Of a DNA stretch of 64,000 nt, positions 2,755-12,153 are shown in pieces. The stretch is from Vampirovibrionales bacterium (GTDB lineage Bacteria; Cyanobacteriota; Vampirovibrionia; Vampirovibrionales; JAJTHC01). The position numbers and the translations under genes are program-made. The notes below the pieces were generated by a model that worked only from the letters and a program-made list of their open reading frames with translations, searched no databases and was not told the origin of the DNA. The stretch is taken from the NCBI GenBank assembly GCA_044348005.1, contig JBIKTR010000005.1:11991-75990 (forward strand), given 5' to 3'. Numbering within the stretch: position 1 is the stretch's first letter; every line of letters starts with the position of its first letter.

Positions 2755-5505
2755 TTATTCGTCGAACTCGCCAAGGGAATTCAAGAGCTTATCGTCGTCT
2801 CCAGTTAACAATGCGACAACTTGAACACGTAAATCATGTAAAAGAAGACGCAAACCTTTTCTCTTTTTATGTTCAGTGGCAGTTGAACCTCTGGAGCCTA
2901 TTCGGCCGGCTTCACCCTGTGAAAGATCCGTGAGGCTTTCCACATTAGTTCGACCTGCATCCTTGAGATTAAAAGGAATAGGCTCGGCAGACGGAATAAC
3001 CTGTGGCGTTACTCTCTGCACAAGGTCGCCCCCCCTTCCTGCTGGTGCTTGTGCTCCTGCTCCTGCTCCTGCTTGTGCTACTGGTGCTGTTCCTGCTCCT
3101 ACTGTTGGTGCTTGTCGTGCTGGTGTTGCTGATGCTGGTGCTGGTGTTGCTGATGTTGGTGCTGGTGCTGGTGCTGGTGTTGCTGATGTTGTTGCTTCTT
3201 TTATTGCTTGTCGTGCTTGAACAACTTTGTCTGAATAATCAGGTTGGGCATCAAGATATTTCTGTGCGTAACGTTGTTCTATACGACTGTTATTATGCTT
3301 TTTGCCGAATTCGGCAAGGGCAAATAGTGCATCTTCATTTGCTGAGTCACGCTTTAAAAGTGACCTAACTGCCTTGTAGGCTTTTACGCATTCTTTCTTA
3401 TTACCAGTTTGTGAAGCCTGATCATATTGGCTTTTCGCCAAGGTGACAATACTTGTTCGTATAGATGTTAAATCAGAAGATAGCCTATGATTATGAATAA
3501 GAGGATCCAACGAGCTGTTAGTCGCTTGCTCAATGGATTGGATTACTCTCACTACTTCAGCTTCCATTTGTTCAGATACTTTAATGGCTTTAGAGTACTC
3601 TTTTTTTGCTACATGTAGCCCAGCTAGTTTTTCTAATACATTTCGTACTTGTGTATTGGGACTATTAACCAATGCTAAACGTTCCTGTAATAAAGCTATA
3701 GCTCTATCAGGGTTTGTTGATTTATATAAGTCGGCCAGATCTTCTAGTAATATAAACCGAAGATTTGTATGATTGTTCTTTGTAGCAATTGCTTGAACAA
3801 GGGTTTCGTAGAAGCCAATTTTATTAGCCCCTCTAAGATCATTTGGAATTAACTTATCTAATTTTCCTTCACCCGAACTCAATGTAATTAAAATATCATT
3901 AATCTGTTTCAGTAAGGGTTCTTTATCCAATTTTGGATTTCTTTGAAGGGCGGACACAGCTACCTTAATTGCACGATAAGGCTCGCCTGCTTGTAAAACT
4001 TTAGCAACCCTTGCAGACGCCCTTGAGGCATCCTGAGGTAAAGCTTGGGCTGATTTGCCTGGTGACAATAGGCCTGCTATTGGCTTTGGTAGTAGGCCTA
4101 CCGTTTCTGGTCGTGCTGGTACTGGTGTTTTAACTCTTGGTGCTACTGGTGATGCTGGTAGTGATGCTGGTGTTGTTGATGCTGGTGGTCCTGTTGGTGC
4201 TTCTGCTCCTGCATTTCCTGCTCCTGCTCCTGATGCTGTTGGTGTTCCTGCTGATGCTTGTGTTCCTGCTGATGTTGTTGGTGTAGGTGCTGGTGTTGCT
4301 GGTGGTTTTGGTGCTGCTGATGCTGATGCTGTTGGTGCTGATGGTTTTGCTGTTGTTGCTGGTGAGTCTAGGTTTATATTTCGACTCAAAGTGTCAGGGA
4401 GTTCTTGCCCTGACACTTGAAGAGTTGGTATTGAATTTGGTCTAAATGGTTCTTGATTTTGCAGAATAACATCCCCATTAAGTGGGATTGGTTCTGCATT
4501 TGCTCGTTGGAACCCTAGATTAACATCTCCTGCTCCTGCTGTTGTTGCTAGTGCTGGTGCTGGTGTTGCTGATGCTGTTGGTGGTGCTTGTACTGGTGCT
4601 ACTGGTGCTACTGTTCCTGCTCCTGCATTTCTTGCTGGTGCTACTGGTTTTGGTGAGTCTAGGTCTATATGTTGACTCAAAGGGTCAGGGAGTTCTTCCC
4701 CTGACACGTGAAGAGTTTCTGTTGCATCTGATTTAATACTAGGAACAAATTCTTTTTGAATTGTCATTGATTCAAATGGTTTATCACTGTTGACTAATTG
4801 CAGATTAACATTCCCCTTAAGTGGGATTGGTTCTGCATTTGCTCGTTGCAACCCTAGATTAACATCTCCTGCTCCTGCTGGGGCTGCTGGTGCTTCTAGA
4901 TTGGAGAAGCTATTACCACCGCCACTACCACCACCACCACCACCACTGTGGCGAGCTGCTGCAGCTGGGCGCGGGGTAGTAACTTGTTTTACAGCTTCGT
5001 CAACAGAAGCAAGAGGAGGCGTCGGCCCATCTACTTCTCTTTTTAAAAAGCCAAAGGTTTTTTCCAAAAACTCTCCGACGTCTTGACGTCTCCACAATAA
5101 TAGGCCCGCCGTGGTAAGGGCAGCGGCGCCTATGGCCACGTTTCTCACCGTATGGTCTTCTTCTTGAGGCGGTGTTGTTTTGGTGGGTGCTGTGACTTTC
5201 GCAGGTGGCACGGTTTTTTGAGCCACAGGGTGGTGTTCGGCAGGTGGCGTCAAAGGACTCGTCGCCGACGAAGACGAAGAGTGAACCTCTGCCCCAGTCT
5301 TCAAATCAACAGGCGAAGGCGTGGGGGCATAGTTTAATGCGGTAGAATCCACAACGGGCGCTGGGCCTGTGTTCCTCGGGTAAAGATCCGCAGAAGATGC
5401 TCCTTGATTCAAAAGCGGTAACGTGGATGCCAAGGGGGGGGGGGGGGCGAACGCAGATTGTGGCGCTTGAGTAAACGAAAAACTATTCATATTGTTCATA
5501 GCCAT
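2755..5505 (-). CDS. Large Pro/Ala/Thr-rich repetitive protein (putative surface or secreted)
   Basis: 916 aa. Low-complexity PAPAPT/ATPAP runs are encoded by (GCTGGT)n-type DNA repeats. Two tandem ~115-aa repeats (GAGDVNLG.QRANAEPIPL...) are present. The C-terminal part looks helical, with a TPR-like composition. Confidence 0.6.
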   Translation of the reverse strand: MAMNNMNSFSFTQAPQSAFAPPPPLASTLPLLNQGASSADLYPRNTGPAPVVDSTALNYAPTPSPVDLKTGAEVHSSSSSATSPLTPPAEHHPVAQKTVPPAKVTAPTKTTPPQEEDHTVRNVAIGAAALTTAGLLLWRRQDVGEFLEKTFGFLKREVDGPTPPLASVDEAVKQVTTPRPAAAARHSGGGGGGSGGGNSFSNLEAPAAPAGAGDVNLGLQRANAEPIPLKGNVNLQLVNSDKPFESMTIQKEFVPSIKSDATETLHVSGEELPDPLSQHIDLDSPKPVAPARNAGAGTVAPVAPVQAPPTASATPAPALATTAGAGDVNLGFQRANAEPIPLNGDVILQNQEPFRPNSIPTLQVSGQELPDTLSRNINLDSPATTAKPSAPTASASAAPKPPATPAPTPTTSAGTQASAGTPTASGAGAGNAGAEAPTGPPASTTPASLPASPVAPRVKTPVPARPETVGLLPKPIAGLLSPGKSAQALPQDASRASARVAKVLQAGEPYRAIKVAVSALQRNPKLDKEPLLKQINDILITLSSGEGKLDKLIPNDLRGANKIGFYETLVQAIATKNNHTNLRFILLEDLADLYKSTNPDRAIALLQERLALVNSPNTQVRNVLEKLAGLHVAKKEYSKAIKVSEQMEAEVVRVIQSIEQATNSSLDPLIHNHRLSSDLTSIRTSIVTLAKSQYDQASQTGNKKECVKAYKAVRSLLKRDSANEDALFALAEFGKKHNNSRIEQRYAQKYLDAQPDYSDKVVQARQAIKEATTSATPAPAPAPTSATPAPASATPARQAPTVGAGTAPVAQAGAGAGAQAPAGRGGDLVQRVTPQVIPSAEPIPFNLKDAGRTNVESLTDLSQGEAGRIGSRGSTATEHKKRKGLRLLLHDLRVQVVALLTGDDDKLLNSLGEFDE
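5434..5447. repeat. Homopolymeric G14 tract (poly-C on coding strand) inside the 5' end of CDS 2755..5505
   Basis: Direct read of 14 consecutive G. On the coding strand it encodes PPPP at about residues 20-24. Confidence 0.9.
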
Positions 5506-5630: not shown

Positions 5631-6338
5631 TTACCCCCCACTCGACGCAATGGCCTTGGCAATGGCCTCCACATCCTGCTGAGATACATCCCCCGAGCCC
5701 TTCGATTTCGCCTTGCTCAAGCTATTGTTCAAGTTCTGCAACGCCTGTTGCCGAGAAAACTTCGACTGCGTTATGGCATTAAAGCCCGCCAACGTGTAGC
5801 GTTGCTTGCGTGCTTCTGAATCGTCCAAAAAACCAGCCAACGCGTTAAATCGCACACTTCGGGACGCATCCGCATCCGTGAGTTCTTTTAGGGCGTTGGT
5901 AAAGCTCCCCAAATACGCGGATTCCAAGGCGCGCAAGCGGGTTTCGTTCAGGCTACCCAAGGCAATGGCACTAAAGGTGCTGTTTAACGCCCCGCCAAAA
6001 CGCTTGGCTTCACGACTGCGTAACTGGCCACTGGCTTCATTCATCGAACGGTTAATGTCGCTGGCTAGCGGGTCGTACAATTCCTTTTGGCGGTTGCTGA
6101 CGCCTTCTTGGCGTTGACTTTGGGTAAGCGCCATTTCTTGCAACAGCGTGCCTAAGCCTTTTTGGGCGATGCTGAGTTGCGCTTGGGTTTCGCCTGTTAG
6201 GGTGGATTCATCCACCAGGCCTGCGCCCGTGTCTCGCACGCTGTATTCGTTGCCGAGCGAGTCTTTGAGGCTGACGTATTTCAGGCTTTCTTCCGTTTTC
6301 TTTTTCTTGCGTTTAAATAGGTTCATAAATGACGCCAT
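5631..6338 (-). CDS. Hypothetical protein
   Basis: 235-aa ORF with a Lys-rich N-terminus. No recognisable domain. Confidence 0.45.
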   Translation of the reverse strand: MASFMNLFKRKKKKTEESLKYVSLKDSLGNEYSVRDTGAGLVDESTLTGETQAQLSIAQKGLGTLLQEMALTQSQRQEGVSNRQKELYDPLASDINRSMNEASGQLRSREAKRFGGALNSTFSAIALGSLNETRLRALESAYLGSFTNALKELTDADASRSVRFNALAGFLDDSEARKQRYTLAGFNAITQSKFSRQQALQNLNNSLSKAKSKGSGDVSQQDVEAIAKAIASSGG

Positions 6339-6498
6339 GAGTAAGGCTCCTTTTCGTTGTCATGCTAACATCAACACGTTTTTCCCTCGTCGTGTTTGGT
6401 ATAAGTATGACAAAGTTTTTCGCCTCTTCATAGTGTATAAAACCCACTATTTTACGAATTTTTCGCTTGGAAGGGTGTTGTTTTTATGCTATTTTCAG

Positions 6499-6564
6499 AA
6501 GAACTCTAAAAAGAGTTGCTAATACGCAACACCCCCATTCTGTAACGAAAGGAGGTGAGGCAAA
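6499..6564. repeat. Inverted repeat, left copy (pairs with 8342..8401). It contains a near-palindrome TTGCTAATACGCAA and the perfect SD AAAGGAGGTGA
   Basis: About 60 bp, roughly 88% identical to the reverse complement of 8342..8401. Confidence 0.8.
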
Positions 6565-6633
6565 ATGGATCATATTCAAGATATTTTAATCTTGATGAGT
6601 ATCCTCCTTCTAGCGTCTAAACTAGGAGGATAG
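6565..6633 (+). CDS. Micro-ORF, 22-aa hydrophobic peptide (MDHIQDILILMSILLLASKLGG) behind a perfect SD; candidate type I toxin-like or leader peptide
   Basis: The ATG lies 7 nt after GGAGGTGA. The predicted peptide is strongly hydrophobic. A homologous inverted copy exists at 8285..8341. Confidence 0.35.
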   Translation: MDHIQDILILMSILLLASKLGG

Positions 6634-6719
6634 CGTCGCAAAAGAGTTCTCAAGTTTACAAGACTTGGGGACTCTCCCTTTTTGTATTGTGACAAAGCAA
6701 ACGCGCTTTGTCAATCCCC

Positions 6720-7721
6720 CTAGCGAATGCCTTTAAGCGGTGTCATGGCGTCTTGGGGGGGTGGGGCAACCAGCCCTAAAAAGGCGTAAGACTTAGCGTT
6801 TTCAGGGGTTTCCGTCGTCACCACGGGGGAGGTTCCACCGCTAAACATCGGTGATGTTTCGGGCAATTTGGCGTAACTGGGGTGTTCCACCACAAAGCGA
6901 TGCAGGTCGTTTTTTTCCAAATAGCGCGCAATTTCATTGAGCCTAAACACCAAGGGGTGGGCGTTGAGTCTGTTTTCGTTGAGTTCAGGGTACTTTTTCA
7001 GAAAGAAGAGCCATGTTCGGGCTTCACGCATCCAGGCTTGTGCCTCTTCCTGCTTGGAATTGTGGGCATCGCTGTGCATGGCTTCATGCGCAATAAGGGC
7101 GGAAAGTGCTGGTATGGGAGCATTTTGGTGCTTTTCGTTGATGAAAAGCATCCAGTTGCCGTGTTTGTCAAGCCACGCAAGCGCGTCGAAATAGCGGTAT
7201 AGCGGGGAAAGTTCTTCGAGGTTTTTAAACAAGACTTTGCCTCGTTTGGCGTGCAATATAGCCAGTGATTGCACGCCTTCAGGGGATTCACCCATCATGA
7301 TGAGGGCTTTGGCGAGGGTGTCACTAGAAGTGAGGGTGATCCATGGTGGGGGGGCACCAATGGCGGGCAAAACGACAGGTGTTTCAATCGCCGTGCGGGT
7401 TTGAACAGTCGGGAGACTGAGAAAATTGACCGCCGTTTGAGCGCTGGCAGAGGGGGTGGCTTGCAGGTACACCCGCTGTTGGTGCGGAGGAGTCGGGGTG
7501 GGGGGGAGCATGGCATAGGCTGAAGATGATTGCCACCATTGCGTTTTAGTCATTTCTGCCTGAGCCCTATTGACCTGAACGAAGCTGATGATGGGGTACA
7601 GCAGTAGAAGCGTCAAGCCTAAAGCACTTGTGAGCATTTGAAATGGCGTTAAACGAGCAAGCATGCGGGTTTCCCTTTTGTAGAGGGTAGGGTGTGCGTG
7701 TGATGCTTCTTCTTCGACCAA
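6720..7721 (-). CDS. Hypothetical membrane-anchored protein with HExxH motif (possible zinc metalloprotease-like)
   Basis: 333 aa with an N-terminal TM segment. HEAMH motif in LIAHEAMHSD. It lies inside the IR-bounded segment. Confidence 0.4.
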   Translation of the reverse strand: MVEEEASHAHPTLYKRETRMLARLTPFQMLTSALGLTLLLLYPIISFVQVNRAQAEMTKTQWWQSSSAYAMLPPTPTPPHQQRVYLQATPSASAQTAVNFLSLPTVQTRTAIETPVVLPAIGAPPPWITLTSSDTLAKALIMMGESPEGVQSLAILHAKRGKVLFKNLEELSPLYRYFDALAWLDKHGNWMLFINEKHQNAPIPALSALIAHEAMHSDAHNSKQEEAQAWMREARTWLFFLKKYPELNENRLNAHPLVFRLNEIARYLEKNDLHRFVVEHPSYAKLPETSPMFSGGTSPVVTTETPENAKSYAFLGLVAPPPQDAMTPLKGIR

Positions 7722-8284
7722 AACATGAAAACCCTAAAACGTCTCCTTTTTCAGGGGGAAGCCTCGTATTTTCGACACACAGAAACCCCTTTTTTGGCCC
7801 ACGTTTATTCGTTTAAGTGGGCTTTTTTAATGTTTTGTTAAGCTTTGTAACATACGAGCAATATTCACGATTATGAAGACTTTATTAAAGTGAAGAGACA
7901 CCCAAAAGAAAACCTCTTCAAAAACCCCTCATCCCCAACAATACCTTCTTCTTCCTTCACTTCATTCCCCACCCCTCATTTACGAACCTATCCTTCCCCC
8001 TTCTTTATTTTTTAGTTCAGCACTTCACCCGTTTATGTAAACACTTTTTTCTAGGCACGCCACCTATATTTGTTGTGTTTACTGATGTACAGGCCTTTCC
8101 ACGGCGAAGGGTCTGTACCCTCATTCCCCCCTTACCTTAATGGTTTACCCCGCTTTTACAAACACGAATCCCACGCTTTTCGTGATGTTTCAACTTTACT
8201 CTCCCTCTCTCTTTTCTCTATGCCTATGTCCCCCTGTAATGTGTATTCATTACAGGCTTTTTATTGGGGAAACTCTTTAAAACA

Positions 8285-8341
8285 CTAGAGGATACAGAGA
8301 AATAGCGAAAATAACAGAAGTATGGTTTCTGACATAATCAT
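8285..8341 (-). CDS. Micro-ORF, 18-aa hydrophobic peptide (MIMSETILLLFSLFLCIL) behind a perfect SD; paralog of 6565..6633
   Basis: Reverse-complement reading of the right IR copy gives AAAGGAGGTGAGCTAAA-ATG. The composition is like Ibs-type small hydrophobic toxins. Confidence 0.35.
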   Translation of the reverse strand: MIMSETILLLFSLFLCIL

Positions 8342-8401
8342 TTTAGCTCACCTCCTTTCTGTTACAGAACGGGGGTGTTGCTATATTAGCAACCCTTTTA
8401 T
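8342..8401. repeat. Inverted repeat, right copy (pairs with 6499..6564). It contains the palindrome TTGCTAATATAGCAA
   Basis: Reverse complement aligns to the left copy through the SD and the ATG. Confidence 0.8.
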
Positions 8402-8491
8402 TTCAGGTTTTTAGTAGGCTAGCATAAAGCCTTACGTGATTCAAGAACCATGACCCCCACTTTCAAGCGTGGAGCCTTTGTGCTACACTAA

Positions 8492-10102
8492 ATGCCACAA
8501 GCCCCCCTTAATGAGGAACCTGCATCCATGCCTTTTTGGAAAACCAATTGGAAAATTACAAAAATTACGTTTGCGGTATGTACTCTATTATTGAAGGGTT
8601 TTACAACTCTATTTATTTATTCATTCCTATGGAAATTTAAACCAAAACCTCATTATAAAACCTTTTGGGGAAGTGTTGGAAGTTTTGTGCTTACAGCACT
8701 TTTAGTGCTTGTCGTTTTACTTGTTTCTTCTTGGGTTGTAACCTCTGATTTCATAAGCTCTTTAAACTTTTTACACTTGACTACTTCAAATGATGTGAAT
8801 GTCTTTTTAACACTTTTGGTATACGCCTTGACTCTTGCTGTTTTAATACAAACCCTTGACTCTCAACGAGCCTCTGCAGAACGGACGGCTCGTATGGAAA
8901 TGGCGAAGGTATTGACGGAGGCCTTTAGTCATAGTGAAATGTTTGAAGCTATTGAGTATTTCTTGCAGGTGTCACCTTATCTAGTTGATAAAAATGGAAA
9001 AGGTCGTCAAGTTTATATTGAAGAAATCAACGAAAAACCCGAAACTAAAAAATACCGTTACCGAATACTGACCACCTTACACCATGCCGAACGGCTTTAT
9101 AAAACTGAAAAAGCAGATACAGCCTTATTTACGAGTTTAATAACGCCTGACATTGTAGAAGTGGCTTTATGCTTGTACCAACTGGACGACTATATGAAAG
9201 ACGTCGATAAACCTGTTTATGAAATGGTGTATAGGGTGTTTGAAGACATTCGCACCTCTTATCTCGCACCTTATGCGAAAGCCGTTCAAAATAAAAAAGA
9301 AATCAATTCCAAGAAATTACAACACATTCGTCGTATTTTATGTAGTCTTCAAAAGTGGGACAAAGAATGGGGTGATGAAGGCGATATTATCTTAACAGAT
9401 GTTGATTTAATTATGGTTTATTTAATTGATGAAAAGTACAGCTTGGTTGCTTATAAAAATATTTCAAACGAACTCAATCTTCTTGATAAACGATTTGAAG
9501 CCTTAGCTAAGGATTCTAAAAGTACAAAGCCTTTTAAGCGATTTGCGGATCTTTATTTTTTGCGTGCAGATGGGAAATGTGAGCAAAAAGATTATAAAGG
9601 TGCCATTCAGGATTACACTAAATCCATTGAACTAAATCCTAAGAATATCTATACATATAGTAATCGAGGAATTAATCAAGTTAGATTAGGAAACTACCTC
9701 GAAGCTATAAAAGATTTTGATAAAGCGATTATATTAGACCCTAAATTCATTGGAGGGTATTGTAACCGAGGGATTGCCAAATACAACTTAGCACAATATG
9801 AAGAAGCGATAGACGATTATAACCAAGCTATTGAACTCAACCCTGAAGATGACGATGCCTACTACTTGCGAGGGCTTGCCAAAGACGACTTAGAAAAATA
9901 TGAAGAAGCTGTTGTTGATTACACCAAAGCCATTGATCTTGACCCTCAACATGCCGATGCGTACAACAATCGAGCGTTGACTTATCAGCAAATGGCTCAA
10001 CAGGCGAGAGCTAAGGGTAATCACACTGAAGGGAAAGATCTTGAATCTAAAGCCCAAGCCGATTTTGCTCAAGCAAAACGACTTGAATCTGAAAAACAAT
10101 AG
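8492..10102 (+). CDS. TPR-repeat protein with N-terminal transmembrane segments
   Basis: Multiple 34-aa TPR-like units (…AIQDYTKSIELNPKN…, …AIDDYNQAIELNPED…). The gene is AT-rich, and the true start may be at 8528. Confidence 0.6.
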   Translation: MPQAPLNEEPASMPFWKTNWKITKITFAVCTLLLKGFTTLFIYSFLWKFKPKPHYKTFWGSVGSFVLTALLVLVVLLVSSWVVTSDFISSLNFLHLTTSNDVNVFLTLLVYALTLAVLIQTLDSQRASAERTARMEMAKVLTEAFSHSEMFEAIEYFLQVSPYLVDKNGKGRQVYIEEINEKPETKKYRYRILTTLHHAERLYKTEKADTALFTSLITPDIVEVALCLYQLDDYMKDVDKPVYEMVYRVFEDIRTSYLAPYAKAVQNKKEINSKKLQHIRRILCSLQKWDKEWGDEGDIILTDVDLIMVYLIDEKYSLVAYKNISNELNLLDKRFEALAKDSKSTKPFKRFADLYFLRADGKCEQKDYKGAIQDYTKSIELNPKNIYTYSNRGINQVRLGNYLEAIKDFDKAIILDPKFIGGYCNRGIAKYNLAQYEEAIDDYNQAIELNPEDDDAYYLRGLAKDDLEKYEEAVVDYTKAIDLDPQHADAYNNRALTYQQMAQQARAKGNHTEGKDLESKAQADFAQAKRLESEKQ

Positions 10103-10114
10103 AAAACAACATCC

Positions 10115-11056
10115 ATGCCAAACGACCTGCTACGACTTAAAACCGCCCCGAGCTTCCTCCACTGGTGGCAGGGCCTTTACGCCCCCCTAGAGGCATCCGC
10201 TGAACAAGGCGTGGAAGAACTCAAGCGGTGGATCGCTTTTTTAAAGCTCCCCACTTACGAAACCCTCGCCTATGTGATGACCCCAAACGACGCCTACGAT
10301 GCCCTTCTCCCTGCGTGGGACGCTTGGCACCCCCTGCTTGAAAAACGCCTCAACGCTCGTGTGCCGATTCAATATCTGCTCGAAGAAGCCCCCTTCTTGG
10401 GCATGACACTCGTGGTGCGTCCGCCGTGCTTGATTCCACGCCCCGAAACCGAATTGCTCGTGGAAGCCGTGGTGCAACGGCTTCAACAGAACACGCAAGC
10501 GTCCACAATTTGGGAAGTGGGCATCGGCACGGGGTGCATCAGCGTGGGGATCCACCACCTGCTGAAAGGGCATCCGCACAACAAGAGCCTTCACTATTAT
10601 GGAGGGGATGTATGCGTCCATGCGTTGAAGCTGGCTCAAGAAAACGCCAACACGCAAGGGCTTGCGATCACCCTGTTTAAAAGTGACTTACTCGCGGGAT
10701 TCCCCCTTCATTTGGCACCGCCTGATTGCCTCGTGGCGAACTTGCCGTATATTGATAGGGGCTTGTATTCAAGCATGGCGGTTGAAGTGCGAGACCATGA
10801 GGGGCATCACACGCTATTTGCCGAAGACGAGGGCTTTGCACTCATCTTTCGCTTGATCGACGCCGTTCACGCGCGTTTTGGCGAAGACTGGCAAGGGTTT
10901 TTGGCGCTTGAGTTTGGCGAACACATGCACGAACGCCTCAAAACCAAGCTGGACGCTCACGGTTTTACGCATCAGGTGTGGGTGAGCGATTATACAGGCA
11001 TCGTGCGTCATGTGCTAGCCTCACGTTTTCCTTTTTGTGGTATCTTAAAAGAGTAA
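10115..11056 (+). CDS. prmC: Release-factor glutamine N5-methyltransferase (HemK/PrmC family)
   Basis: SAM-binding VGIGTGCISV motif and the catalytic NLPY (NPPY-type) motif. It lies immediately upstream of pheS. Confidence 0.7.
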   Translation: MPNDLLRLKTAPSFLHWWQGLYAPLEASAEQGVEELKRWIAFLKLPTYETLAYVMTPNDAYDALLPAWDAWHPLLEKRLNARVPIQYLLEEAPFLGMTLVVRPPCLIPRPETELLVEAVVQRLQQNTQASTIWEVGIGTGCISVGIHHLLKGHPHNKSLHYYGGDVCVHALKLAQENANTQGLAITLFKSDLLAGFPLHLAPPDCLVANLPYIDRGLYSSMAVEVRDHEGHHTLFAEDEGFALIFRLIDAVHARFGEDWQGFLALEFGEHMHERLKTKLDAHGFTHQVWVSDYTGIVRHVLASRFPFCGILKE

Positions 11057-11082
11057 GATAGCCCCACAAAGAGGATTTTTCC

Positions 11083-12153
11083 ATGAATGCCACCACGTCT
11101 TTAAGTCCTGAACACCTCAACACCCTTGAAGTTCAAGCCATTGCTCAACTCAACGCTTGTGCGAATCTCACTGAACTTGAACACGCGAAGGTCGAACTCT
11201 TGGGCCGCAGCGGAAGCCTGACCCTGTTGAAACGAGGCTTGAAAGACGTGCCTGCCGAAGATCGCCCGCAGGTAGGGGCCCTGCTGAATGCCCTGTCTCA
11301 AGCCGTGGAAGTCGTGCATGACGAGATTAAAGCACGCTTGGACGCCGACGCCTTAGCGCTTCAATTACACGCCGAAACGCTGGATGTCACCATGCCGGGG
11401 CGCCATGTGCCAGTAGGCAAGGTGCATCCACTGAGCCAGATTACGGAAGACGTCTGCCGGTTGTTTGAAGGCATGGGCTTTAGCGTGTTAGACGACAACG
11501 CCTGCCCCGAAGTGGAAACCGAGTTCTTCAACTTTGAAGCCCTCAACTTCCCAGCCGATCACCCGGCTCGAGACATGCAAGACACCTACTATACGGAAGT
11601 CGCCAGCCACGTGTTGTTGCGTTCGCAAACCAGCAATGCGCAGATTCGCCATATGAGCCAGCACAAACCGCCGATTCGTGTGATTGCTCCAGGGCGGGTG
11701 TATCGCAACGAAGAAGTGAGCAGTCGCAAGTATGTGTTGTTTCATCAGATTGAAGGGCTTTATGTGGACAAACACGTCACCTTTGCCGATTTAAAAGGCA
11801 CGCTCAATGCGTTTATCACCGAATTGTTTGGTGGTAATGAACGCCCCACGCGTTTTCGCCCCAGCTATTTCCCTTTCACCGAACCGAGTGCGGAAGTCGA
11901 TGTGCAATGCCTTTTCTGCCAAGGCGAAGGGTGCAAGGTCTGCGGTCATAGCGGATGGCTTGAGATCTTGGGGGCTGGCATGGTTCACCCCAACGTGCTA
12001 GAAAACTGCGGGATCGATTCGACGGTGTATCAAGGTTTTGCTTTCGGCATGGGCGTCGAACGATTGGCAATGTTGCGCGATGCCATTGACGACATCCGCA
12101 TTTTTTACACCAACGATCAACGTTTCCTCAAGCAATTCAAACCCAAGTACTAA
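11083..12153 (+). CDS. pheS: Phenylalanine--tRNA ligase alpha subunit
   Basis: Class II aaRS motifs, a FPFTEPS-type motif, and a typical pheS C-terminal core. Note that pheT does not follow. Confidence 0.9.
   Translation: MNATTSLSPEHLNTLEVQAIAQLNACANLTELEHAKVELLGRSGSLTLLKRGLKDVPAEDRPQVGALLNALSQAVEVVHDEIKARLDADALALQLHAETLDVTMPGRHVPVGKVHPLSQITEDVCRLFEGMGFSVLDDNACPEVETEFFNFEALNFPADHPARDMQDTYYTEVASHVLLRSQTSNAQIRHMSQHKPPIRVIAPGRVYRNEEVSSRKYVLFHQIEGLYVDKHVTFADLKGTLNAFITELFGGNERPTRFRPSYFPFTEPSAEVDVQCLFCQGEGCKVCGHSGWLEILGAGMVHPNVLENCGIDSTVYQGFAFGMGVERLAMLRDAIDDIRIFYTNDQRFLKQFKPKY

What the first reader, a model, noticed from the sequence alone, without database searches (positions are those of the whole stretch)
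6499..8401. About 60-bp inverted repeats bracketing a 1.8-kb segment, each carrying an operator-like palindrome, a perfect Shine-Dalgarno sequence and an 18-22 aa hydrophobic micro-ORF
Both copies carry the motif TTGCTAATA(C/T)(G/A)GCAA, which is palindromic. They then carry AAAGGAGGTGA, then an ATG opening a tiny hydrophobic peptide (MDHIQDILILMSILLLASKLGG and MIMSETILLLFSLFLCIL), both ending in …ATCCTC…TAG. Both read inward. Peptides of 18-22 aa that are almost purely hydrophobic, behind a very strong RBS, resemble Ibs-type or other type I toxins, which are normally silenced by an antisense sRNA. The bracketed segment holds an HExxH protein and a 560-bp pyrimidine-rich non-coding stretch (7722-8284) that could host the antisense or other RNAs. 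Alternatively the IRs could mark an invertible or mobile cassette.
Basis: partly seen in the sequence, partly recalled or inferred. Interest (0 to 1): 0.65.

Follow-up and report, generated by a model that had tools for sequence, protein, structure and literature searches.

The report
Putative new type I toxin-antitoxin family
The two "inverted repeats" are one intact and one truncated copy of an unannotated 250-bp mini-gene found many times in Vampirovibrionales genomes; each encodes a 19-24-residue hydrophobic peptide opposed by a strongly conserved antisense promoter, which looks like a new type I toxin-antitoxin family in a lineage where none was known.

Summary
The repeats are the best-conserved part (5'UTR and start of the ORF) of two convergent copies of a self-contained module of about 250 bp.

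I recovered 39 near-complete copies from about 10 Vampirovibrionales assemblies, at 1-9 per assembly and often in tandem with a period of about 254 bp. Three more came from metagenomes using an independent 3' pattern.

Each module carries, in order:
- a weak sense promoter
- a structured 5'UTR that sequesters a perfect SD
- a 19-24 aa hydrophobic ORF under coding constraint
- a covarying hairpin over the ORF's 3' end
- an intrinsic terminator
- just beyond the terminator, on the other strand, an extended -10 promoter aimed back through the ORF and SD (TTGACA in 39/39, 17-nt spacer in 39/39, TG in 39/39, CACAAT in 38/39)

The window's left copy (6466-6714) is complete. The right copy (8445-8312) is a 5' fragment that breaks off mid-ORF and lacks the hairpin, terminator and antisense promoter.

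Relatives keep the same 1.8-kb segment without a right copy, so it is not a cassette. The 560-bp pyrimidine-rich stretch is a separate conserved non-coding element, not the antisense.

Best reading: a new type I toxin-antitoxin-like family resembling Ibs/Sib in architecture, with no sequence homology to any known family. Neither transcription nor toxicity has been tested.

The parts
6467..6495 (+). Left module: predicted sense (peptide mRNA) promoter. -35 TTGGAA at 6467-6472, 17-nt spacer with TG at 6487-6488, -10 TATTTT at 6490-6495.
   Evidence: Aligned across 39 units: -35 TTGAAn/TTGGAA in about 30/39, spacer 17 in 39/39, TG in 36/39, -10 TAnnnT (mostly TAGyCT). Mean 6.8 of 12 consensus matches. 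Transcription not shown.
6502..6564 (+). Left module: 5'UTR. It has a 5'-terminal hairpin AACTCT/AGAGTT (6502-6517), the GTTGC-TAATAC-GCAAC hairpin (6515-6530), a C-run CACCCCC (6530-6536) paired with the SD GGAGGTG (6551-6557), and AAAGGAGGTGA at 6548-6558.
   Evidence: The 5'UTR core is the most conserved segment of the family (mean pairwise identity 0.88). The MFE fold sequesters the SD, and the consensus fold predicts the same helix, which is invariant. The 5' hairpin is 92% paired with many U.G pairs; the window copy has a C-G to T-A double change.
6565..6633 (+). Left module: micro-ORF MDHIQDILILMSILLLASKLGG (22 aa plus stop), the predicted membrane toxin.
   Evidence: The family ORF is open at 19-24 aa in 38/39 units, with 31 distinct peptides in 5 subfamilies. 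Differences by codon position are 149/92/200, indels are multiples of 3, and the other frames are mostly closed. Mean Kyte-Doolittle hydropathy is 1.2-2.3.
6601..6631 (+). Left module: hairpin over the ORF's 3' end and stop codon (ATCCTCCTTCTAG / CTAGGAGGAT).
   Evidence: Three pairs change on both sides in 15-16 sequences each (CG/UA; UG/AU/GC; UA/CG). The helix is 97% paired. For the whole tested structure the slid controls give 48-67% and 0/500 shuffles reach the observed covariation score.
6643..6684 (+). Left module: intrinsic terminator of the sense mRNA (15-bp stem at 6643-6675, then CCCTTTTTG).
   Evidence: The helix is conserved in 39 units, with compensatory changes at two pairs and many U.G pairs that would be A.C on the other strand, so it is a sense-strand structure. 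In L033 the stem sequence is different but still forms a hairpin followed by a T-run.
6686..6714 (-). Left module: predicted antisense (antitoxin RNA) promoter. -35 TTGACA at 6714..6709, 17-nt spacer, TG at 6694..6693, -10 CACAAT at 6691..6686. It points back into the module.
   Evidence: 10/12 matches plus TG. Across 39 units TTGACA is 39/39, spacer 17 is 39/39, TG is 39/39 and CACAAT is 38/39, while the middle of the spacer varies. A database pattern built only from this element plus the T-run recovered further modules that carry family micro-ORFs.
6505..6679 (-). Left module: predicted antisense RNA of about 175 nt. It is fully complementary to the ORF, start codon, SD and most of the 5'UTR. 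The candidate 3' end is the GTTGCGTATTAGCAAC hairpin (6530..6515) plus TCTTTTTAG.
   Evidence: The ends are inferred from the promoter and the terminator-like site on the - strand. It folds with z = -5.0. No conserved ORF or SD lies on this strand. Neither end has been mapped experimentally.
8312..8445 (-). Right copy: truncated module. It retains the sense promoter (-35 TTGAAT at 8444..8439, -10 TAGCCT at 8421..8416), the 5'UTR (hairpin 8393..8377, SD 8357..8347) and the first 10 or so codons.
   Evidence: nhmmer matches model positions 1-129 of 244 only. It is identical to MIMSE-subfamily members up to ATGATTATGTCAGAAAnCATACTTCTGTTA, after which the sequence is unrelated. No ORF-3' hairpin, terminator or antisense promoter is present.
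8283..8339 (-). Right copy: 18-aa ORF MIMSETILLLFSLFLCIL. The N-terminal 10 residues are family-derived; the tail is read from unrelated sequence.
   Evidence: It lacks the family's conserved ...LLV.K C-terminus. The left module's predicted antisense RNA could pair with its 5'UTR (duplex -113 kcal/mol vs -43 +/- 5.5 for shuffles).
7824..8267 (+). Not part of the module: a conserved, pyrimidine-rich, non-coding element with its own terminator (8233-8256 plus T-run).
   Evidence: 73-76% identity to L021 and L025 with indels that are not multiples of 3. No Rfam match.
6720..7721 (-). Not part of the module: a 333-aa ORF with HEAMH (313 aa from the first ATG at 7661), convergent with the left module.
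   Evidence: Orthologue in L021 at 70% aa identity. No hit in Pfam, NCBIfam or PDB sequences.

Best explanation
The finding consists of two members of a previously undescribed multi-copy family of stand-alone modules of about 250 bp in Vampirovibrionales (Melainabacteria). The modules are built like cis-encoded type I toxin-antitoxin loci.

Proposed mechanism:
1. A weak promoter makes an mRNA of about 185 nt. Its perfect SD is locked in a hairpin with an upstream C-run. It encodes a 19-24 aa hydrophobic peptide that ends in a conserved Lys.
2. Immediately beyond the mRNA's terminator, an invariant near-consensus extended -10 promoter on the other strand makes an RNA of about 175 nt that is complementary to the whole ORF, the start codon and the SD.
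3. Pairing of this RNA with the mRNA, and possibly collision between the convergent polymerases, blocks translation and/or triggers duplex cleavage.
4. If the antisense RNA falls, the peptide is made and inserts into the membrane, causing depolarisation or growth arrest.

The left copy in the window is intact. The right copy is a 5' remnant with no antisense promoter of its own. It could still be silenced in trans through the shared 5'UTR.

Shown here: the sequence architecture, its conservation, the coding constraint and the hairpin covariation.
Inferred: transcription of both strands, the RNA-RNA effect and the toxicity.
For: - Family: 39 near-complete units in about 10 assemblies, 1-9 per assembly, with tandem arrays.
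- Coding: ORFs of 19-24 aa in 38/39 units. There are 31 distinct peptides with a conserved pattern of a polar N-terminus, a hydrophobic core and Lys. The third codon position varies most, and 40% of single-base codon changes are synonymous. L033 has a divergent 5'UTR and a GTG start but keeps the peptide.
- Antisense promoter: TTGACA/17/TG/CACAAT is essentially invariant while the spacer sequence varies. The sense promoter is much weaker, at 6.8 vs 10 of 12 consensus matches.
- Independence: a pattern taken only from the 3' T-run and antisense promoter recovered modules that carry the micro-ORF.
- RNA structure: the ORF-3' hairpin and terminator covary, the structure is 96.9% paired against 48-67% when slid, and 0/500 shuffles reach the observed score. 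The SD is sequestered. The mRNA folds with z = -6.4.
- The antisense strand has no conserved ORF.
- No linked protein gene, and flank orientation is random, so the modules stand alone.
- Decay typical of selfish modules: a truncated copy (window right), an internal deletion (L021), and partial copies and short fragments including lone 3'/promoter remnants.
- Plausibility of toxicity at this size: IbsC is 19 aa and remains toxic at 15 aa with at least 10 hydrophobic residues (PMC8309996).
Against: - No expression data exist for either strand. The transcript ends are inferred from consensus motifs only.
- Toxicity and neutralisation are untested.
- The candidate antisense terminator is weak (a 5-bp stem with a short U-run), so the 3' end of the antisense RNA is uncertain. 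In the window it could read on toward the 235-aa gene at 6338.
- The SD hairpin, the GTTGC hairpin and the 5'-3' clamp are invariant, so covariation can neither support nor refute them.
- There is no sequence homology to any known toxin or antitoxin family.
- Multi-copy small membrane proteins under antisense control need not be toxic.
Confidence: 0.6

Rival explanations
1. The modules encode ordinary, non-toxic small membrane proteins (for example modulators of membrane complexes) whose level is tuned by a cis-antisense RNA. The architecture is the same, but there is no toxin-antitoxin behaviour.
For: Everything shown here (coding constraint, antisense promoter, structures) fits this equally well. 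Many bacterial micro-proteins of this size are benign regulators (general knowledge). One unit position, beside the TPR gene, seems to recur across several MAGs.
Against: - Housekeeping micro-proteins are normally single-copy and sit in operons with their partners. These are 1-9 copies per assembly, in tandem arrays of different subfamilies, with no linked gene and random flanks.
- Frequent truncated or deleted copies.
- An antisense promoter much stronger than the sense promoter, together with SD sequestration, suggests that expression must be kept off.
Confidence: 0.2
2. The peptides are exported effectors (a leaderless bacteriocin or a predation-related membrane-active peptide of these predatory bacteria), and the antisense RNA merely times their production.
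For: Vampirovibrio is described as a predator (general knowledge). The family shows rapid diversification, with 31 distinct peptides among 39 copies.
Against: No transporter, immunity or processing gene is linked to the modules. The peptides are almost purely hydrophobic with a single Lys, not amphipathic or cationic like known leaderless bacteriocins or PSMs (the comparison is from general knowledge).
Confidence: 0.07
3. The micro-ORF is a leader peptide or attenuator, or the antisense promoter is really the promoter of a neighbouring protein gene, so the module is a cis-regulatory leader.
For: In the window the antisense promoter points toward the 235-aa gene (6338..5631), which starts about 130 bp beyond the module on the same strand.
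Against: - Each module has its own terminator directly after the ORF.
- Downstream of the unit: same-strand gene 15, opposite-strand gene 12, another unit 6.
- Upstream of the unit: opposite-strand gene 19, same-strand gene 12, another unit 6.
- Neighbouring genes are unrelated between loci.
Confidence: 0.05
4. One reading: the inverted repeats are the ends of an invertible or mobile 1.8-kb cassette. A related version is that the unit is a generic non-coding REP or MITE-type repeat.
For: There are two inverted copies 1.76 kb apart. The repeat is multi-copy. An assembly contig breaks inside the right arm.
Against: - L021 and L025 carry the same segment (235-aa gene, left module, HExxH gene, non-coding element) without a right copy. 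L002 has a complete unit at the TPR side but different neighbours.
- No recombinase or transposase lies in or beside the segment.
- The right arm is a truncated gene fragment.
- The units are oriented genes with coding constraint and promoters, not symmetrical repeats.
Confidence: 0.03

Closest known systems
Ibs/Sib type I toxin-antitoxin loci of E. coli and relatives
   Same: - A very short (18-19 aa), almost purely hydrophobic toxin: IbsC is 19 aa and stays toxic at 15 aa (PMC8309996).
- A cis-encoded antisense RNA that spans the entire ORF (PMC8594479).
- Several copies per genome. The Sib loci were first noticed as intergenic repeats (Rudd 1999, as cited in PMC8309996).
- The antitoxin has its own promoter.
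   Different: - No sequence similarity. The peptides hit no Pfam family, including small-toxin families, and no Rfam antitoxin model matches.
- In Ibs/Sib the asRNA is fully contained within the mRNA. Here the two predicted transcripts are nearly co-extensive, with each promoter sitting just outside the other's terminator.
- These peptides carry a conserved C-terminal Lys, whereas IbsC lacks positive C-terminal residues.
- The host is Melainabacteria rather than Enterobacteria.
Tandemly repeated type I loci (Ldr/Rdl long direct repeats, Zor/Orz)
   Same: [quoted passage not shown] Here the arrays have a period of about 254 bp.
   Different: [quoted passage not shown] In Ldr/Rdl it lies 5' of the ORF. 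Here it overlaps the whole ORF.
- Arrays here mix different peptide subfamilies that share one near-identical 5'UTR.
Microcystis aeruginosa msoT1/msoA1 candidate type I system
   Same: It is the only type-I-like system reported from the cyanobacterial side of the tree. It was also predicted from small TM ORFs with overlapping antisense promoters and terminators (PMC12390103).
   Different: - Its candidate toxins are 39-81 aa, and MsoT1 is predicted to have two TM helices. The peptides here are 19-24 aa.
- That work was on a single genome without a conserved multi-copy family.
hok/sok and AapA/IsoA-type toxin mRNAs
   Same: A highly structured toxin mRNA with the SD sequestered, and a possible 5'-3' clamp. 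The consensus fold pairs AAGGG in the 5'UTR with CCC..UU in the terminator tail.
   Different: - The clamp and the SD helix are invariant here, so they are unproven.
- No leader ORF is present.
- In Hok/Sok the asRNA lies 5' of the ORF.

Membership tests
Type I toxin-antitoxin systems (generic class) | A small (<60 aa), usually hydrophobic or transmembrane protein encoded on a short dedicated mRNA (150-400 nt) | tested here: met
   ORF of 19-24 aa under coding constraint, with hydropathy 1.2-2.3. The distance from predicted promoter to terminator is about 185 nt. Definition from PMC8594479 and PMC12390103.
Type I toxin-antitoxin systems (generic class) | An antisense RNA antitoxin transcribed from its own promoter on the opposite strand | tested here: inconclusive
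   The promoter sequence is present and essentially invariant (39/39, 39/39, 39/39, 38/39), and it retrieves modules independently. No transcript has been observed.
Type I toxin-antitoxin systems (generic class) | Complementarity between the antitoxin RNA and the toxin mRNA at a site that controls translation or stability | tested here: met
   By geometry, the predicted antisense RNA covers the ORF, the start codon and the SD. This depends on the inferred transcript ends.
Type I toxin-antitoxin systems (generic class) | The protein is toxic when over-expressed, and the RNA neutralises it | not testable with these tools
   Needs induction and rescue experiments.
Ibs/Sib family | Sequence homology of the peptide to Ibs toxins and of the RNA to Sib | tested here: not met
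   Pfam scan of 5 peptides at E<=10 gave 0 families. Rfam at gathering and at E<=10 gave no antitoxin family.
Ibs/Sib family | The antisense RNA spans the whole toxin ORF; multi-copy loci | tested here: met
   Predicted transcript geometry. There are 1-9 copies per assembly, with tandem arrays.
Invertible or mobile cassette bounded by inverted repeats | Both repeat arms are conserved at the ends of the segment in relatives, with a recombinase or transposase present | tested here: not met
   L021 and L025 lack the right arm. No recombinase or transposase domain was found in the internal or flanking ORFs. The right arm is a truncated gene.
REP / MITE-type non-coding repeats | A short non-coding repeat with no ORF or promoter content, often palindromic as a whole | tested here: not met
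   The units are polar, carry a conserved SD plus an ORF with a codon-position signature, and have two promoters.
Leader-peptide attenuators | A micro-ORF upstream of, and co-oriented with, the regulated gene, with the terminator acting as an attenuator | tested here: not met
   The downstream neighbour is co-oriented in only 15 of 33 informative cases, and the neighbouring genes are unrelated.

The most novel reading that the evidence does not exclude
The modules form a cross-regulating network rather than isolated pairs. The 5'UTR/SD core is about 88% identical among all paralogues and species, while the ORFs diverge to about 53%. Any copy's antisense RNA could therefore silence every paralogous toxin mRNA in trans through the shared SD region. 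That would include orphan, promoter-retaining fragments such as the window's right copy (predicted duplex -113 kcal/mol). This would make a communal antitoxin pool guarding a diversified toxin arsenal, in a predatory, non-photosynthetic sister lineage of Cyanobacteria where no type I system has been described.
Probability: 0.2. Interest if true: 0.7.

Novelty: new variant of a known kind. Interest (0 to 1): 0.55.

Why it matters
- Type I toxin-antitoxin systems have been reported only from Proteobacteria, Firmicutes and Tenericutes, plus one recent candidate in Microcystis (PMC12390103). A well-supported family in Melainabacteria would widen that range.
- It would show that the narrow distribution is a detection artefact. 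None of the peptides checked is present in a 15-billion-protein collection.
- The family offers about 40 natural variants, with a covarying mRNA hairpin and an invariant antisense promoter. That is a ready-made comparative data set for studying antisense specificity, SD sequestration and the evolution of tandem toxin arrays.
- Practically, these 250-bp repeats break short-read assemblies and are missed by gene callers.

Tried and rejected
- Rfam, whole window at gathering threshold and 6400-8500 at E<=10: only noise (PyrR at E = 5.6, and similar).
- Pfam on five peptides: nothing.
- Pfam, NCBIfam and PDB-sequence searches on the HExxH ORF and the 235-aa neighbour: nothing usable.
- Exact look-up of the 313-aa version of the HExxH ORF in public assemblies: not on record.
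- Viral contig scan with the 3' pattern: 0 hits, so there is no sign of a phage association.
- Two of the five metagenome hits (L031, L032) matched only the promoter-like pattern, with no module upstream. I treated them as chance or unrelated.
- An antisense-encoded peptide: rejected, because there is no conserved ORF or SD on that strand.
- A linked protein partner: rejected.
- Leader or attenuator, or a promoter for a neighbouring gene: rejected on flank statistics.
- Cassette or invertible segment: rejected on synteny.
- Using G.U/A.C asymmetry to assign the ORF-3' hairpin to one strand: inconclusive by inspection of the aligned arms, because an alternative register with a 2-nt bulge avoids the G.U pair.
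- Covariation tests of the SD hairpin and the GTTGC hairpin: uninformative, because both are almost invariant.
- The + strand promoter-like site inside the right copy (8311-8338) has no conserved counterpart in the family alignment, so I did not count it as an antisense promoter.
Full report
**1. The observation**

The inverted repeat is real. Ungapped arms at 6526-6573 and 8334-8381 are 71% complementary, with sub-blocks of 21 nt at 90% and 16 nt at 94%. A gapped alignment of the two copies in the same orientation shows near-identity across AAAAGRGTTGCTAATA..GCAACACCCCCRTTCTGTAAC(A)GAAAGGAGGTGAG..AAAATG. Shuffles of the window give no chance matches for either half of this motif, and the window holds only these two copies.

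Both micro-ORFs exist and read inward: MDHIQDILILMSILLLASKLGG at 6565-6633(+) and MIMSETILLLFSLFLCIL at 8339-8283(-).

There is one small error in the finding.

**2. The repeat belongs to a large family**

I scanned one genome per species with GCAACACCCCC-N9-13-AAGGAGGTGA. This returned 29 loci, nearly all from Vampirovibrionales MAGs and one complete Vampirovibrio genome. Several contigs had multiple copies, and some were tandem arrays with a period of about 254 bp.

Every match is followed, 4-6 nt after the SD block AAGGAGGTGA, by an ATG and a short hydrophobic ORF.

Full-length alignment shows that the conserved unit is about 250 bp, not 60 bp. An nhmmer profile of the unit finds one complete copy in the window (6466-6714, model positions 1-242 of 244). 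It also finds one partial copy (8445-8312, model positions 1-129 only).

The window's own genome is not among the species representatives. Its closest relative, L025, is about 81% identical across the shared region. A Logan contig from the same organism ends inside the right arm, which is what a repeat does to a short-read assembly.

**3. Anatomy of the module, in the sense orientation**

- *Sense promoter.* -35 TTGAAn, an exact 17-nt spacer containing TG, and a poor -10 (TAGyCT). It averages 6.8 of 12 consensus matches.
- *5'UTR.* It has three elements:
  - A 5'-terminal hairpin. It is 92% paired and rich in U.G, and the window copy carries a C-G to T-A double change.
  - A C-run (CACCCCC) that pairs with the SD (GGAGGUG), both in the single-sequence fold and in the consensus fold.
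- *SD and ATG.* The GAAAGGAGGTGA block is invariant in 39/39 units, followed by the ATG.
- *Micro-ORF.* 19-24 aa.
- *Hairpin over the ORF's 3' end and stop codon.* Its sequence differs between subfamilies while the pairing is kept (CCUCC/GGAGG, CUUCUU/AAGAAG, ACCUAU/AUAGGU, CUUGUU/AACAAG). Three pairs change on both sides in 15-16 sequences each.
- *Intrinsic terminator.* Its many U.G pairs make it a sense-strand structure.
- *Antisense promoter.* It sits directly after the T-run, on the opposite strand, and points back into the module. TTGACA is present in 39/39, a 17-nt spacer in 39/39, TG in 39/39 and CACAAT in 38/39, while the centre of the spacer varies freely.

For the whole structure, 96.9% of cells are paired against 48-67% when the 3' partners are slid. 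No shuffle out of 500 reaches the observed covariation score.

Read on the antisense strand, the GTTGC hairpin is followed by a U-run. It is the only terminator-like element available to a transcript from that promoter.

In the window these elements lie at:

| Element | Coordinates |
|---|---|
| Sense -35 / -10 | 6467-6472 / 6490-6495 |
| 5'UTR hairpins | 6502-6530 |
| SD | 6551-6557 |
| Micro-ORF | 6565-6633 |
| ORF-3' hairpin | 6601-6631 |
| Terminator | 6643-6684 |
| Antisense -10 | 6691..6686 |
| Antisense -35 | 6714..6709 |

**4. The ORF is a gene, and the antisense strand is not**

The ORF is open at 19-24 aa in 38 of 39 units. The exception, L021, has an internal deletion.

There are 31 distinct peptides in five subfamilies (MDIREA.., MITSET.., MDHIEH.., MDEIQQ.., MNITET..). 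All share a polar or acidic N-terminus, a core of the type IIxLLLV, and a conserved Lys followed by one to a few residues.

Among close pairs, differences by codon position are 149/92/200, and 85 of 213 single-base codon changes are synonymous. Indels are in multiples of three.

A divergent metagenomic member, L033, has a different SD region, a GTG start and a different terminator stem. It keeps the peptide (VDKIQQLISLIIILLLVVKL) and the antisense promoter.

The antisense strand has no conserved ORF or SD.

**5. An independent test**

I built a pattern from the T-run and antisense promoter only. It shares no bases with the first pattern. It retrieved five metagenome loci. Three of them are modules with family micro-ORFs and two look like chance matches. 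It retrieved nothing from viral contigs.

**6. Context**

No protein gene is consistently linked to the modules. The recurring neighbours are syntenic orthologues or generic TPR proteins.

Flank orientation is mixed on both sides:

| Side of the unit | Opposite-strand gene | Same-strand gene | Another unit |
|---|---|---|---|
| Upstream of the sense promoter | 19 | 12 | 6 |
| Downstream of the unit | 12 | 15 | 6 |

The module is therefore neither a leader for, nor in an operon with, its neighbours.

Decayed copies are common. Besides the truncated right copy in the window and the internal deletion in L021, one search lists partial copies and short fragments. These include lone 3'/promoter remnants in L013, L019 and L027.

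**7. The 'bracketed' segment**

L025 and L021 are syntenic with window 5634-8267. They share the 235-aa gene, the left module, the HExxH gene and the pyrimidine-rich stretch. Neither has a right-hand module.

L002 has a complete module next to the TPR gene homologue but a different gene on its other side.

The right copy in the window matches MIMSE-subfamily members for about 134 nt. It then switches to unrelated sequence in the middle of the ORF. It lacks the hairpin, the terminator and the antisense promoter.

So there is no cassette. The convergent arrangement is an accident of where two family members sit.

The stretch 7824-8267 is a separate element. It is conserved at 73-76%, has indels that are not multiples of three, and carries its own conserved + strand terminator at 8233-8256. 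It has no Rfam match.

**8.

Conservation is very uneven along the module (mean pairwise identity):

| Segment | Mean pairwise identity |
|---|---|
| 5'UTR core | 0.88 |
| Antisense promoter | 0.81 |
| Terminator | 0.75 |
| ORF 3' half | 0.67 |
| ORF 5' half | 0.53 |

The window's two copies belong to different peptide subfamilies, and one is truncated. Only the 5'UTR core therefore stands out between them.

**9. Mechanism**

The best-supported reading is a cis-encoded type I toxin-antitoxin-like module.

- A weakly transcribed, tightly folded mRNA (z = -6.4, SD sequestered) encodes a membrane peptide.
- A strongly and probably constitutively transcribed RNA of about 175 nt is complementary to the ORF, the start codon and the SD.
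- This RNA would block translation and/or trigger cleavage of the duplex.
- The convergent promoters, about 190 bp apart (-10 to -10), would add transcriptional interference.

The sequence architecture, its conservation, the coding constraint and the helix covariation are shown here. Transcription of both strands, the transcript ends, the RNA-RNA effect and toxicity are all inferred.

Toxicity at this size has a precedent. IbsC is 19 aa and is still toxic at 15 aa with at least 10 hydrophobic residues (PMC8309996).

I put this reading at about 0.6. The main rival, at about 0.2, is a family of non-toxic micro-membrane proteins under antisense control.

**10. Comparison with known systems and novelty**

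In architecture the modules are closest to Ibs/Sib. Both have a toxin of about 19 aa, an antisense RNA that spans the ORF, and multiple copies (PMC8594479; PMC8309996).

Membership of Ibs/Sib fails on sequence. There is no Pfam hit for the peptides and no Rfam antitoxin hit.

T1TAdb lists 24 families from 218 species, and its paper does not mention cyanobacteria at all. A 2025 paper states that type I systems are known only from Proteobacteria, Firmicutes and Tenericutes. It proposes the first cyanobacterial candidate, in Microcystis, with toxins of 39-81 aa (PMC12390103).

Full-text searches linking Vampirovibrio or Melainabacteria to toxin-antitoxin systems found nothing relevant. None of eight peptides checked is in a 15-billion-protein collection.

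Vampirovibrionales belong to Candidatus Melainabacteria, within the Cyanobacteriota/Melainabacteria group.

I therefore rate this as a new family, that is, a new variant of a known kind. It is of moderate to good interest, subject to experimental proof of the antisense RNA and of toxicity.

Noticed in passing
window 7824-8267 (+); L021 2978-3431; L025 4853-5331; L035 4-244 (-): The 'pyrimidine-rich non-coding stretch' is a conserved element at 73-76% identity. It has indels that are not multiples of 3, a very conserved 5' block (TTAAT..TGTTAAGCTTTGTAACA...AAGACTTTATTAAAGTGAAGAGAC), conserved internal hairpins (GTAAACA../..TGTTTAC; GTACAGRCCTT../..AAGGnTCTGTAC) and a conserved + strand terminator at 8233-8256. 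It has no Rfam match. It is probably an unknown ncRNA of about 400 nt. With only 3-4 sequences there is no covariation to test.
   Followed up: partly
window 6690-6713 (and alignment A3 columns 264-287 in all 39 units): The antisense promoter contains an invariant inverted repeat, TGnCAAA-N10-TTTGTCA. In the window it is a perfect 9-bp repeat, TGACAAAGC/GCTTTGTCA, with a 6-nt spacer. The repeat overlaps the -35 and the TG/-10 region. Conservation extends beyond what a promoter alone needs, so it could be an operator for a regulator of the antitoxin promoter.
   Followed up: no
L005, L011, L024, L030 (JBEISK01 contigs): A MAG titled 'Gammaproteobacteria bacterium Sample-107-S80-bin-40' carries 5 modules. 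One of its contigs (L011) shares several flanking genes with Vampirovibrionales MAG loci L009 and L015. Its taxonomic label is probably wrong.
   Followed up: partly
L033 3056-3389: A divergent module variant. About 125 nt of extra sequence lies between the GTTGC hairpin and the SD region. The SD is weaker (AAGGTAG), the start is GTG and the terminator stem has a different sequence. The peptide and the antisense promoter are conserved.
   Followed up: partly
L013 2744-2784; L019 2931-2956; L027 6286-6310; L008 4066-4123; L007 50-101; L021 1425-1649: Fragments of modules: short 3'/antisense-promoter remnants just upstream of intact units, 5' or internal fragments, and one unit (L021) with an internal ORF deletion (MEQ*). 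These indicate ongoing birth and decay of copies.
   Followed up: partly
L001 1-71 = window 8375-8445: A Logan short-read contig from the same organism (100% identical to window 8375-11500) starts inside the right repeat arm. The repeats break assemblies.
   Followed up: yes
window 2755-5505 (-): A 916-aa Pro/Ala/Thr-rich ORF with an internal duplicated block (...GAGDVNLG[LF]QRANAEPIPL[KN]G[ND]V...SGEELPD.LS..I.LDSP...). It has no Pfam domain. It lies next to GH9 and GT2 (cellulose-synthase-like) genes.
   Followed up: no
window 6720-7721 (-) and 5631-6338 (-): The HEAMH-containing 333-aa ORF and the 235-aa ORF that flank the left module are conserved in L021, L025 and L035. Neither has a Pfam, NCBIfam or PDB-sequence match. 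They are lineage-specific proteins of unknown function.
   Followed up: partly
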